A DNA stretch of 64,000 bases from an uncultured Candidatus Saccharibacteria bacterium (GTDB lineage: Bacteria > Patescibacteriota > Minisyncoccia > Phycocordibacterales > WO2-35-19). Each line of letters opens with the position of its first letter. Position 1 is the first letter of the stretch. A program made the position numbers and the translations under genes. The notes under the pieces are model-generated. The model saw only the letters and a list, made by a program, of their open reading frames with translations, did not search any database and was not told the origin of the DNA. Of this stretch, positions 4,766 to 5,447 are shown piece after piece. Location of the stretch: contig CAZVUY010000004.1 in assembly GCA_964630525.1 (NCBI GenBank), forward strand, positions 11,448 through 75,447, written 5' to 3'.

Positions 4766-4799
4766 AACCCCTAGTTGACCGATCGGTCAACTAGGGGTT
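4766..4799. repeat. 34-bp perfect palindrome immediately upstream of the 4820 gene
   Basis: aacccctagttgaccgatcggtcaactaggggtt, centred on GATC. Confidence 0.9.
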
Positions 4800-4819
4800 A
4801 AAATGAAAAATAAAAAGTT

Positions 4820-5428
4820 ATGAGTAAAGTAGTGGATAAAATAGAAAGAGCGAAAAAATTTATAAGAGATGAAAGAACTTTGGAAATTTTGGAAGCCATT
4901 GCGAAATTGGGAACCATAGCTTTTCTTGCTACTGTTGCGCCAAATGCTGCCGGTCATATTATTAAACTTTTGGGATGGGTACCAGATTATCGCAGCAGGT
5001 ACAGGGTTCAAAGGATCTTAAAATCTTTAGAGAAGCAAAAATTTATCAGATTTTGGATCAAAAATGGAAAAGGTAAACTTGAATTGACCCGCGAAGGAAA
5101 ACTTTATTTTGCTGGATTGAAAGTGAAGCACATCAAACTTCAGACTAAACCAAAATGGGACAAGTTGTGGAGAATAGTAACATTTGATATTCCCGAAGAG
5201 TTAAAAGCCAATAGGAGACGTTTCAGCAGGACTCTCCTTGCAAAAGGTATGTTCAGTCTAGAAAGATCTATCTTCGTCTATCCGCACGAATGTAAGGAAG
5301 AAATATACAAAATTGCTCGCTTGTATGAAGTGGATGATTATATCTGTTATATTACAGCAAGTGCAGTAGTACCTGATTCAAAGTTGAAGTCTGCATTTCC
5401 TTACACTAACTTATCCGCCCCTAAGTGA
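4820..5428 (+). CDS. PaaX-like regulator: N-terminal wHTH plus C-terminal Cas2-like domain
   Basis: The C-terminal segment WRIVTFDIPEELKANRRRFSRTLLAKGMFSLERSIFVYP matches the Cas2 core pattern (LVxYDV..RRLRxxLAKxxxxYGxRVQNSVFEC). The N-terminal half is helical and basic, as in wHTH domains. The stop codon lies inside the downstream palindrome. Confidence 0.5.
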   Translation: MSKVVDKIERAKKFIRDERTLEILEAIAKLGTIAFLATVAPNAAGHIIKLLGWVPDYRSRYRVQRILKSLEKQKFIRFWIKNGKGKLELTREGKLYFAGLKVKHIKLQTKPKWDKLWRIVTFDIPEELKANRRRFSRTLLAKGMFSLERSIFVYPHECKEEIYKIARLYEVDDYICYITASAVVPDSKLKSAFPYTNLSAPK

Positions 5429-5447
5429 CCGATCGGTCACTTAGGGG
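5418..5447. repeat. 30-bp perfect palindrome, a paralogue of 4766-4799
   Basis: cccctaagtgaccgatcggtcacttagggg. It differs from the upstream copy by symmetric compensatory changes (AGTTGACC vs AAGTGACC), so dyad symmetry is preserved. Confidence 0.9.

What the first reader, a model, noticed from the sequence alone, without database searches (positions are those of the whole stretch)
4766..5447. PaaX-like (wHTH + Cas2-fold) gene bracketed by two near-identical 30-34-bp perfect palindromes
The 202-aa ORF ends in a segment that closely follows the Cas2 core consensus (IVTFDIPEE..RRRFSRTLLAKGMFSLERSIFVY). It is flanked upstream (4766-4799) and downstream (5418-5447, overlapping its stop codon) by palindromes CCCCTAGTTGACCGATCGGTCAACTAGGGG and CCCCTAAGTGACCGATCGGTCACTTAGGGG. 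The two copies differ only by compensatory substitutions in both arms, so the dyad symmetry itself is under selection. No cas1, CRISPR array or transposase is nearby, and a tRNA-Gly lies just upstream. The palindromes could be operators for the wHTH protein, processing or hairpin sites, or ends of a small mobile cassette that targets a tRNA-proximal site.
Basis: seen in the sequence. Interest (0 to 1): 0.6.

Follow-up and report, generated by a model that had tools for sequence, protein, structure and literature searches.

The report
Regulator gene bracketed by own operators
A small DNA-binding protein gene of an ultra-small (Patescibacteria) bacterium is flanked on both sides by the same long palindrome. 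This gene-between-two-palindromes layout recurs in the many relatives examined, out of a family of thousands, each with its own palindrome, so it most likely marks a self-regulating repressor with two binding sites.

Summary
Perfect palindromes at 4766-4799 and 5418-5447 bracket a 202-aa ORF (4820-5428). Its product is a winged-helix domain plus a Cas2-fold domain (Pfam PaaX_M, E=5e-18) and lacks PaaX_C. There are only two copies in 64 kb.

The layout is a family hallmark. In 56 of 60 non-identical relatives, down to 28% identity, an upstream and a downstream copy of a lineage-specific palindrome flank the gene. Control genes almost never show this. The two copies co-evolve, keep dyad symmetry through compensatory changes, and show no G·U bias, so they are double-stranded DNA sites rather than RNA hairpins.

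The upstream copy overlaps a TTGACC-18-TAAAAT promoter 15 nt before the ATG. The downstream copy sits at the stop codon. The gene co-diverges with the neighbouring cysS, so it is inherited vertically and is neither a REP nor an active mobile cassette. It is absent from some relatives, and a Saccharibacteria genome has a solo palindrome at the equivalent tRNA-Gly/cysS site.

Best reading: an autorepressor with two flanking operators, possibly looped. It is neither a true PaaX nor a CRISPR Cas2, although the Cas2 active-site Asp is invariant. Binding is inferred and has not been shown.

The parts
4766..4799 (.). Upstream palindrome (U), 34 bp, perfect: the proposed operator. It overlaps the -35 hexamer and spacer of the gene's promoter and abuts the -35 of the divergent tRNA-Gly promoter.
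4775..4804 (+). Promoter-like site TTGACC-18 nt-TAAAAT (10 of 12 matches). The ATG follows 15 nt after the -10 hexamer, so the mRNA is nearly leaderless. Orthologues have TATAAT 3-12 nt after their palindrome.
4820..5428 (+). 202-aa protein: N-terminal winged helix (residues ~1-103) plus a C-terminal Cas2-like ferredoxin-fold domain (residues ~111-192), with no PaaX_C domain.
5150..5395 (+). Region encoding the Cas2-like (PaaX_M) domain. The invariant Asp123 codon GAT is at 5186-5188, within the motif FDIPE.
5418..5447 (.). Downstream palindrome (D), 30 bp, perfect: the proposed second operator. It contains the TGA stop codon (5426-5428).
4761..4800 (+). 40-nt direct-repeat unit containing U. 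Its partner is 5411-5450, 650 bp away and 83% identical.
   Evidence: D5
5411..5450 (+). 40-nt direct-repeat unit containing D.
   Evidence: D5
4644..4715 (-). tRNA-Gly(CCC), transcribed divergently from the gene. Its promoter-like site GTAACA-17-GATAAT (4764 down to 4736) touches palindrome U. This is context and a possible co-regulated target.
5537..6934 (-). cysS, convergent with the gene. It is the conserved neighbour of this subfamily in relatives with 28-100% protein identity (context).

Best explanation
The ORF encodes a small dimeric DNA-binding regulator: a winged helix for DNA recognition and a Cas2-fold domain for dimerisation. It recognises the long palindrome present on both sides of its own gene. 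Bound at the upstream copy, which covers the -35 hexamer and spacer of a near-leaderless promoter, it shuts off its own transcription. The downstream copy, at the stop codon, is a second operator for the same protein. It most likely acts cooperatively with the first, through a loop of about 650 bp enclosing the gene in the manner of lambda CI OL/OR or LacI O1/O2, and/or as a protein roadblock that ends and insulates the transcription unit.

What is shown:
- the anatomy;
- the family-wide bracket;
- co-evolution of the two sites;
- selection for dyad symmetry at the DNA level;
- promoter overlap;
- vertical inheritance.

What is inferred:
- that the encoded protein is the binder;
- repression;
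- looping or roadblock;
- dimerisation through the Cas2-like domain.

My confidence that the palindromes are cognate binding sites of the encoded protein is about 0.7. For looping specifically it is about 0.35.
For: 1. Protein. Pfam PaaX_M E=5e-18. The AlphaFold model has pLDDT 84 and shows an alpha1-beta1-alpha2-alpha3-wing domain followed by a beta-alpha-beta-beta-alpha-beta domain. The best PDB match is E. coli PaaX 8a39; further matches are MarR/ArsR-type winged helices and Cas2.

2. Family-wide bracket. In 60 non-identical relatives (27-100% identity), the best ungapped match between the upstream and downstream flanks exceeds the 95th percentile of 134 control genes in 56 loci and the 99th percentile in 39. 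Palindromes are 22-46 bp and differ completely between members.

3. Co-evolution. U-D identity within a locus is 0.92, against 0.66 between orthologous loci. For paralogues the figures are 0.83 and 0.39.

4. Symmetry is selected. There are 24 compensatory double changes between U and D, where about 5 are expected.

5. DNA, not RNA. Arm mismatches show no wobble bias (G·T 18, A·C 29, transversions 75). There is no U-tract on either strand. Rfam finds only the tRNA.

6. Promoter overlap.

7. Not dispersed. There are two copies in 64 kb and no third copy within ±4 kb in 36 loci. The MAG H52-bin031_1 holds only the flanking pair under the strict pattern.

8. Precedent. Canonical PaaX represses its own promoter by steric hindrance at a long dyad operator, TGATTC-N27-GAATCA (PMC9493321).
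Against: - No binding data exist, and the sites could be bound by another factor.
- A regulator whose only detectable sites flank its own gene has no obvious physiological output.
- U and D share asymmetric deviations in the same orientation (28 identical against 4 flipped). In some genomes they are identical over 29-38 nt including non-palindromic bases. Selection by a symmetric dimer does not predict this; it points to gene conversion or copying.
- The residues of the predicted recognition helix differ among orthologues that share the same operator.
- The Cas2 active-site Asp is invariant, which a pure dimerisation role does not require.
- The gene is absent from 4 of 4 relatives sampled through CysS.
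- The same palindrome core occurs as solo copies in Saccharibacteria genomes, with no family gene nearby.
Confidence: 0.62

Rival explanations
1. The unit is a cassette or a remnant of one. Palindrome-gene-palindrome is, or was, a self-contained insertion/excision module. The protein (winged-helix targeting plus a Cas2-like metal-dependent nuclease) acts on the palindromes. The two direct copies arise by duplication of a palindromic target, and recombination between them excises the gene and leaves one palindrome.
For: - U and D are direct repeats with shared asymmetries, sometimes identical over 29-38 nt.
- D hugs or overlaps the stop codon, and U carries the promoter, as in insertion-sequence ends.
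- Asp123, at the position of the Cas2 catalytic Asp, is invariant in 52 divergent members, whereas the PaaX-like 3kfw lacks it.
- Family members sit between unrelated housekeeping genes.
- The gene is absent from 4 of 4 CysS-anchored relatives, including one with 74% identical CysS.
- L054 (Saccharibacteria) has a single 34-bp palindrome with the same core exactly between tRNA-Gly(CCC) and cysS, which looks like an empty or excised site.
- In L136 the tRNA-Gly 3' end is duplicated around a small insert, so this site is an integration hotspot.
Against: - All 16 orthologous loci (45-100% identity) are at the same site. A 28-33% identical subfamily also sits next to cysS.
- Identity matrices of the protein and CysS are congruent (Mantel r=0.59, p=0.0002; r=0.86 over all pairs).
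- The protein is often more conserved than CysS.
- There is one copy per 64-kb window and one per locus in all but one locus, L086.
- No recombinase or cas1 lies nearby.
- Relatives that lack the gene (L136, L137) have no relic palindrome.
- Cas2 alone is not known to cut or join DNA site-specifically (my own knowledge).
Confidence: 0.1
2. The palindromes act as RNA or DNA hairpins, as intrinsic or bidirectional terminators or mRNA-stabilising stem-loops. They insulate the gene from the tRNA/lepA unit upstream and the convergent cysS downstream, with no role for the encoded protein.
For: - If transcribed, both fold into 14-15-bp stems of about -27 to -29 kcal/mol, z -5.6 to -6.9.
- D lies at the 3' ends of two convergent genes.
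- The solo palindromes in Saccharibacteria all lie just after stop codons.
Against: - Terminators have no reason to be the same sequence on both sides of a gene, or to co-vary pairwise in more than 50 lineages.
- There is no G·U excess on the sense strand.
- There is no U-tract on either strand.
- U lies upstream of the -10 hexamer and so is probably not transcribed with the gene.
- The palindromes are loop-less and perfect, up to 46 bp long.
Confidence: 0.07
3. The palindromes are operators of a broader regulon of this transcription factor, or of another one. The copy near tRNA-Gly/cysS is the functionally important site, for example controlling tRNA-Gly(CCC) or neighbouring housekeeping genes. 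The bracket around the gene is then a by-product of the gene's position between two target sites.
For: - U abuts the -35 of the divergent tRNA-Gly promoter.
- In L054 a solo palindrome with the same core lies about 82 nt upstream of tRNA-Gly(CCC), without the gene.
- In one Saccharibacteria MAG, the same palindrome occurs at two or more unrelated places (L011, L042).
- Where the downstream gene is co-directional, D lies 26-200 nt before it. In L010 a TATAAT follows D.
Against: - The bracket persists in every genomic context and neighbour orientation.
- The downstream genes are unrelated: gatC, rsmI, ksgA, secA, rpmF and pilC-like.
- No extra copies occur within ±4 kb of any locus or in the H52-bin031_1 MAG.
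Confidence: 0.12

Closest known systems
PaaX, repressor of phenylacetate catabolism (E. coli; PDB 8a39, 3l09; TIGR02277)
   Same: It has an N-terminal winged helix followed by the Cas2-like central domain (PF20803, E=5e-18), and it is the best structural match. PaaX is a dimer, binds long dyad operators and represses its own promoter by blocking RNA polymerase (PMC9493321).
   Different: The window protein is 202 aa against about 305-316 aa. It has no PaaX_C domain, the region that binds phenylacetyl-CoA. It scores 17.6 bits against the TIGR02277 cut-off of 264. There are no paa genes nearby. The operator is a contiguous 30-34-bp palindrome rather than TGATTC-N27-GAATCA. Two operators bracket the gene. 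The Cas2-type Asp is retained, whereas the PaaX-like structure 3kfw lacks it.
Cas2 (CRISPR adaptation protein; also the related VapD-type ferredoxin-fold nucleases)
   Same: The fold is the same beta-alpha-beta-beta-alpha-beta arrangement. The motif FDIPE...R...QKSVF aligns with Cas2 YDVSDD...R...IQRSAF, including the Asp at the end of strand 1. Some databases name family members 'CRISPR-associated endonuclease Cas2'.
   Different: Scores fall below every Cas2 model threshold (15-19 bits against about 24). The domain is fused to a winged helix. There is no cas1 and no CRISPR array. The gene is chromosomal, single and syntenic with housekeeping genes. The Cas2 annotation in databases is a misnomer.
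Repressors whose gene lies between two operators that loop (lambda CI with OL/OR; also LacI O1/O2, GalR OE/OI, DeoR)
   Same: One operator sits at the promoter and a second lies hundreds of base pairs away. For lambda CI the repressor gene itself lies between the operators. This comparison rests on my own knowledge of those systems.
   Different: In those systems the distal operator also serves other promoters, and oligomerisation is demonstrated. Here the distal site sits at the stop codon, no oligomer state is known, and the arrangement marks a whole family rather than one system.
Genes flanked by their own palindromes in mobile contexts (RAYT/REP 'REPtrons', IS200/IS605 ends, Xer-dependent dif modules)
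   Same: A gene is bracketed by palindromic sites that its own product, or a host recombinase, recognises. Presence/absence polymorphism occurs.
   Different: There is no Y1 transposase or Xer-type conserved arm, and no genome-wide spread of the palindrome in the source lineages. Position is stable over deep divergence.

Membership tests
PaaX (TIGR02277 equivalog) | Whole-protein score above the curated cut-off | tested here: not met
   17.6 bits against a cut-off of 264.55.
PaaX (TIGR02277 equivalog) | Central Cas2-like domain (PF20803, PaaX_M) | tested here: met
   E=5e-18, 65.4 bits against a cut-off of 24, residues 111-186.
PaaX (TIGR02277 equivalog) | C-terminal helical ligand-binding domain (PaaX_C) | tested here: not met
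   No Pfam hit. The protein ends about 10 residues after the Cas2-like domain.
PaaX (TIGR02277 equivalog) | [quoted passage not shown] | tested here: met
   The AlphaFold model shows helix-strand-helix-helix-wing in residues 1-103. Foldseek matches PaaX, MarR, ArsR/SmtB and Sso10a. There is no Pfam PaaX_N hit.
PaaX (TIGR02277 equivalog) | Linked to paa catabolic genes | tested here: not met
   The neighbours are lepA, tRNA-Gly, cysS, corA and an S41 peptidase in all orthologous loci.
CRISPR Cas2 | Score above the Cas2 model thresholds | tested here: not met
   PF09827 15.1 bits against 23.8; TIGR01573 18.7 against 24.5.
CRISPR Cas2 | Ferredoxin-like fold with a conserved Asp at the end of strand 1 | tested here: met
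   Asp123 is invariant in 52 divergent members and aligns with the Asp of Cas2 chains 3exc, 6jhz and 8ia4 (those E-values are weak, 0.07-0.9).
CRISPR Cas2 | Adjacent cas1 and a CRISPR array | tested here: not met
   No array in 64 kb and no cas genes in the annotated neighbourhoods.
REP-type dispersed palindromes | Many copies at unrelated intergenic sites in the same genome | tested here: not met
   Two copies in 64 kb. Only the flanking pair in MAG H52-bin031_1 under the strict pattern. No third copy in 36 loci. Caveat: solo copies of the same core occur in Saccharibacteria MAGs, and degenerate copies were not searched genome-wide.
Intrinsic terminator | G+C-rich hairpin followed by a U-tract | tested here: not met
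   The hairpin is stable, but there is no T-run after it on either strand, and the scan does not call it.
Mobile cassette / insertion sequence | The same element at different sites in related genomes, in multiple copies, with a recombinase | tested here: not met
   Synteny is conserved and the gene co-diverges with cysS. It is single-copy. Presence/absence and a solo-palindrome site exist, so an ancient cassette origin is not excluded.
Autorepressor with two looping operators | An operator overlapping the gene's own promoter, plus a distal second operator of the same sequence | tested here: met
   By position only.
Autorepressor with two looping operators | The protein binds both sites and forms a tetramer or higher oligomer that bridges them | not testable with these tools
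   This needs EMSA/footprinting, determination of the oligomeric state, and a looping assay.

The most novel reading that the evidence does not exclude
The palindrome-gene-palindrome unit is a minimal self-acting DNA element. A winged-helix-targeted Cas2-like nuclease, with the invariant Cas2 catalytic Asp, nicks or synapses the two direct palindromic repeats that bracket its own gene. This drives excision, re-insertion or gene conversion. It would account for the shared asymmetries, for the 29-38-nt identical flanks, and for the solo palindrome at the same tRNA-Gly/cysS site in Saccharibacteria. Such an element would be a Cas1-independent DNA-processing role for the Cas2 fold and a possible evolutionary link to CRISPR repeat duplication.
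Probability: 0.07. Interest if true: 0.9.

Novelty: new variant of a known kind. Interest (0 to 1): 0.58.

Why it matters
Patescibacteria have very few recognisable regulators, and almost nothing is known about how they control transcription. This is a large family: 5,119 clusters at 50% identity at E<=0.001, nearly all about 180-200 aa. In the loci examined here, each gene carries its presumptive binding site twice, readable directly from the genome.

If binding is confirmed, three things follow:
- A natural library of potentially thousands of orthogonal repressor/operator pairs becomes available for studying how a winged helix reads DNA, and for synthetic circuits.
- It would provide a first defined promoter/operator architecture (near-leaderless, with the operator over the -35 hexamer and spacer) for these uncultured bacteria.
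- Database entries that call these proteins 'CRISPR-associated Cas2' or 'PaaX' can be corrected.

The retained Cas2 active-site residue and the direct-repeat nature of the sites leave open a more unusual DNA-processing role.

Tried and rejected
- **Generic REP.** Rejected for the source lineage.
- **Known RNA family.** Rfam gives only the tRNA and sub-threshold miRNA-hairpin noise.
- **Sense-strand RNA hairpin.** The G·T versus A·C test shows no wobble bias.
- **Intrinsic terminator.** There is no U-tract.
- **Replication terminus or origin trap** (by analogy with RTP/Tus). There is no GC-skew switch at the locus, and perfect palindromes are non-polar.
- **Xer/dif-type module.** The palindromes have no conserved arm across members.
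- **CRISPR link.** There is no array and no cas1.
- **Defence or phage link.** PADLOC gives only weak Cas2 and CARF-wHTH hits, and PHROGs gives nothing.
- **Second family copy in the window.** None found.
- **Recognition-helix/operator covariation by eye.** Three orthologues with the same operator differ at helix-3 positions, so no simple code emerged. This was not pursued statistically.
- **Half-site search in the window for further targets.** 14 matches against 9.5 expected, which is uninformative.
- **Literature.** No paper found links PaaX-like proteins of Patescibacteria, Cas2-like domains and flanking palindromes.
- **Source genome.** It was not found in the species-representative genome collection, so a whole-genome count of sites for this organism could not be made.
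Full report
**1. Observation**

The sequence shows a perfect 34-bp palindrome, AACCCCTAGTTGACCGATCGGTCAACTAGGGGTT, at 4766-4799. A perfect 30-bp palindrome, CCCCTAAGTGACCGATCGGTCACTTAGGGG, lies at 5418-5447. A pattern search allowing 3 mismatches finds only these two in 64 kb, against 0 in 100 shuffles. The 14-bp core with 2 mismatches also gives only these two. 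They are the longest two-copy direct repeat of the window: 40 nt, 83% identical, 650 bp apart.

They bracket ORF 4820-5428 (+, 202 aa), whose TGA stop (5426-5428) lies inside the downstream palindrome. The two palindromes differ at two arm positions, and both changes are compensated on the other arm. tRNA-Gly(CCC) is at 4644-4715 on the minus strand.

**2. The protein**

- Pfam gives PaaX_M, the 'PaaX central Cas2-like domain', at E=5e-18 for residues 111-186. There is no PaaX_C and no PaaX_N hit.
- The NCBIfam PaaX equivalog scores 17.6 bits against a cut-off of 264. Cas2 models score just below threshold.
- An AlphaFold model built from 20 homologues has pLDDT 84 and pTM 0.73. It shows a winged helix (helix 2-30, strand 32-36, helices 41-51 and 57-72, wing 76-89, helix 91-103). 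This is followed by a beta-alpha-beta-beta-alpha-beta domain in residues 117-180.
- The best solved-structure match is E. coli PaaX (8a39, E=1.6e-4). MarR/ArsR-type winged helices match the N-terminal half, and Cas2 chains match the C-terminal half.
- In 52 representatives with 24-47% identity to the query, the invariant residues are G93, W117, D123, R132, S150 and P155.
- A profile of the C-terminal domain aligns FDIPE...R...QKSVF with YDVSDD...R...IQRSAF of Cas2-type chains 3exc, 6jhz and 8ia4 (weak E-values, 0.07-0.9). The PaaX-like chain 3kfw has no Asp at that position.

The protein is therefore a truncated PaaX relative that keeps Cas2 hallmark residues. It is neither a true PaaX nor a CRISPR Cas2.

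**3. Relatives and their context**

Close homologues (45-70% identity) come from Patescibacteria/Paceibacterota assemblies. In every locus fetched the order is the same: lepA, a small ORF, (tRNA-Gly), the gene, then convergent cysS, corA and an S41 peptidase.

A scan of metagenome contigs with a family profile added 80 loci: 16 orthologous and the rest 27-38% identical. A profile search of 1.84 billion cluster representatives finds 5,119 clusters at E<=0.001 and 422 at E<=1e-30, nearly all 180-200 aa. Where sources name members, the names are 'PaaX family regulator', 'hypothetical protein' or 'CRISPR-associated endonuclease Cas2'. These come from Parcubacteria, Giovannonibacteria or Paceibacterota.

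**4. The bracket is a property of the family**

In the orthologues both palindromes are present, with lineage-specific cores, and each variant occurs both upstream and downstream in its genome:
- GACCGATCGGTC
- GTGCGATCGCAC
- GGCCGATCGGCC
- GAGCGATCGCTC
- GGCCTATCGGCC
- a divergent form in L009

In the distant members the same holds with unrelated sequences. Two examples: L077 has TACCATAATGTTAGCATATGCTAACATTATGGTA twice. L108 has TATATTCCATTATTACGCCATGGCGTAATAATGGAATATA against TTTATTCCATTATCCAGCCATGGCTGGATAATGGAATAAA.

The quantitative results are as follows.
- Among 60 non-identical loci with both flanks, the best ungapped upstream/downstream match exceeds the 95th percentile of 134 control genes from the same loci in 56 cases. 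It exceeds the 99th percentile in 39. With a stricter score, 39 of 60 family loci pass against 4 of 179 controls.
- Identity between the two sites over 26 nt is 0.92 within a locus, against 0.66 between orthologous loci. For paralogues it is 0.83 against 0.39.
- There are 24 positions where the two sites of one locus differ on both arms while each keeps Watson-Crick symmetry. About 5 are expected.
- No third copy occurs anywhere in the 36 loci tested, at ±4 kb or more.

**5. DNA site or RNA hairpin**

If transcribed, the palindromes would fold stably, at -27 to -29 kcal/mol. However, non-complementary arm positions show no wobble bias on the sense strand: G·T 18, A·C 29, transversions 75. No T-run follows either palindrome on either strand, and Rfam matches only the tRNA. 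An RNA-level constraint would also not require the two hairpins of one genome to have the same sequence. The sites are therefore read as double-stranded DNA sites.

**6. Position relative to signals**

In the window a promoter-like site, TTGACC (4775)-18 nt-TAAAAT (to 4804), matches the consensus at 10 of 12 positions. Its -35 hexamer lies in the left arm of the upstream palindrome, and the right arm fills the spacer. The ATG follows 15 nt after the -10 hexamer. Orthologues have TATAAT 3-12 nt after their palindrome, and in most the start codon follows 6-11 nt later. This implies near-leaderless mRNAs. A protein bound there would occlude RNA polymerase.

On the other strand, a promoter-like site for tRNA-Gly (GTAACA-17-GATAAT, 4764 down to 4736) abuts the palindrome. 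The downstream palindrome usually begins between -10 and +50 nt of the stop codon, whatever the orientation of the next gene.

**7. Mobile or inherited**

cysS is the convergent neighbour in all orthologous loci. It is also the neighbour in a 28-33% identical subfamily whose upstream neighbours are a Nudix gene, dnaB and recR. Pairwise identity matrices of the protein and of CysS are congruent: Mantel r=0.59, p=0.0002 for 14 orthologous loci, and r=0.86 for all 19. The protein is often more conserved than CysS, at 62-69% against 49-55%. The window holds a single family member, and only one locus holds two. This is vertical inheritance under purifying selection, not current mobility.

Three observations keep an older cassette history open.
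- Four relatives chosen through CysS alone all lack the gene. L136 (CysS 74% identical) has tRNA-Gly 20 nt from the cysS stop and no palindrome. L137 has a Gmad2-domain gene in its place.
- The two sites are direct repeats. Shared departures from symmetry are identical in 28 cases and flipped in 4. In some genomes the repeat is identical over 29-38 nt.
- The strict pattern found the same core in Saccharibacteria assemblies without any family gene nearby. In L054, a solo 34-bp palindrome ACCCACTAGTTGACCGATCGGTCAACTAGTGGGT lies between tRNA-Gly(CCC) and the cysS stop. That is the same site without the gene. In L011 and L051 the palindrome follows murC. In L042 it lies between a CYTH-domain gene and a dedA-like gene.

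**8. Explanation**

The best-supported reading is a dimeric winged-helix repressor that binds two copies of its own operator. One copy lies over its promoter and gives autorepression, as shown for PaaX at Px (PMC9493321). The other lies at the end of its gene, where it acts cooperatively with the first by looping and/or blocks transcription through the unit.

Binding, repression, oligomeric state and looping are inferred. The rivals are an ancient or residual self-acting cassette using the Cas2-like domain as a nuclease, plain hairpin terminators, and a wider regulon in which the tRNA-Gly/cysS-proximal site is the important one. Each is listed in the report with its evidence. No single reading explains all of the following:
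- the shared asymmetries and the long identical flanks;
- the invariant Asp123;
- the solo palindromes in Saccharibacteria.

**9. Comparison and novelty**

The system works like an autorepressor of the PaaX/MarR kind with a long dyad operator, and it resembles two-operator systems such as lambda CI OL/OR. It fails the membership tests for PaaX: score, C-terminal domain and gene context. It also fails those for CRISPR Cas2: score and context.

I found no description of the two-palindrome bracket, or of this family's biology, in the searchable literature. I rate it a new variant of a known kind. It is of moderate to good interest because the family is large, its members come from barely understood organisms, and in nearly all loci examined the gene displays its presumptive binding site in the genome.

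Noticed in passing
L054 155-188 (Saccharibacteria MAG CAZRKB010000003.1): A solo 34-bp perfect palindrome with the same core as the window's (ACCCACTAGTTGACCGATCGGTCAACTAGTGGGT) lies between tRNA-Gly(CCC) (2-73, minus strand) and the cysS stop (238). No PaaX-like gene is present. It looks like the same site without the gene.
   Followed up: partly
L011 283-318, L051 4778-4811, L042 3554-3587 (Saccharibacteria MAGs): The palindrome CTCAACTAGTTGACCGATCGGTCAG[C/T]TAGTTGAG recurs 35-62 nt after the murC stop in two MAGs. It also lies between a CYTH-domain gene and a dedA-like gene. Two copies are in one MAG. This suggests a dispersed site or a regulon in that class.
   Followed up: partly
L136 4459-4480 and 4911-4930: In a relative that lacks the gene, the last ~20 nt of tRNA-Gly(CCC) are duplicated 450 bp downstream, around a 98-aa ORF. 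This is an att-like signature of a small element integrated at this tRNA.
   Followed up: no
L082 and L102, upstream versus downstream sites: In two loci of the 33%-identity group, the centre of the site reads GCTCCAGC upstream and GCTGGAGC downstream. This is a conserved two-base flip between the two operators.
   Followed up: no
L086 3-275 and 1799-2392: This is the only locus with two family members, about 1.5 kb apart on the same strand. Its flank repeat is a promoter-like AT-rich segment rather than a clean palindrome.
   Followed up: no
L038 310-1002 and 1036-1560 (same genes as L003 965-1675 and 1709-2233): Two adjacent ORFs without Pfam hits, upstream of lepA, gave the highest upstream/downstream flank-repeat scores among control genes (24 and 23).
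   Followed up: no
window 2002-2035: A 34-nt near-perfect palindrome, AACCTGTTAGGATGATATATCATCCTAACAGATT, lies inside the lepA coding sequence.
   Followed up: no
window 34000-42000: G+C content drops to 0.34-0.36 against about 0.44 elsewhere, and cumulative GC skew turns near 20-22 kb. This may be an island and/or a skew switch.
   Followed up: no
window 49767-49792 and 56659-56684; 44812-44842 and 46330-46360: There are two further two-copy direct repeats: 26 nt at 92% identity and 31 nt at 77% identity. Their significance is unknown.
   Followed up: no
L015, L016, L026, L039, L047 (Mucilaginibacter): The palindrome TAA[A/G]TGACCGATCGGTCA[T/C]TTA is conserved in AT-rich intergenic DNA of five Mucilaginibacter genomes. 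It is probably an unrelated operator that shares the 14-bp core.
   Followed up: no
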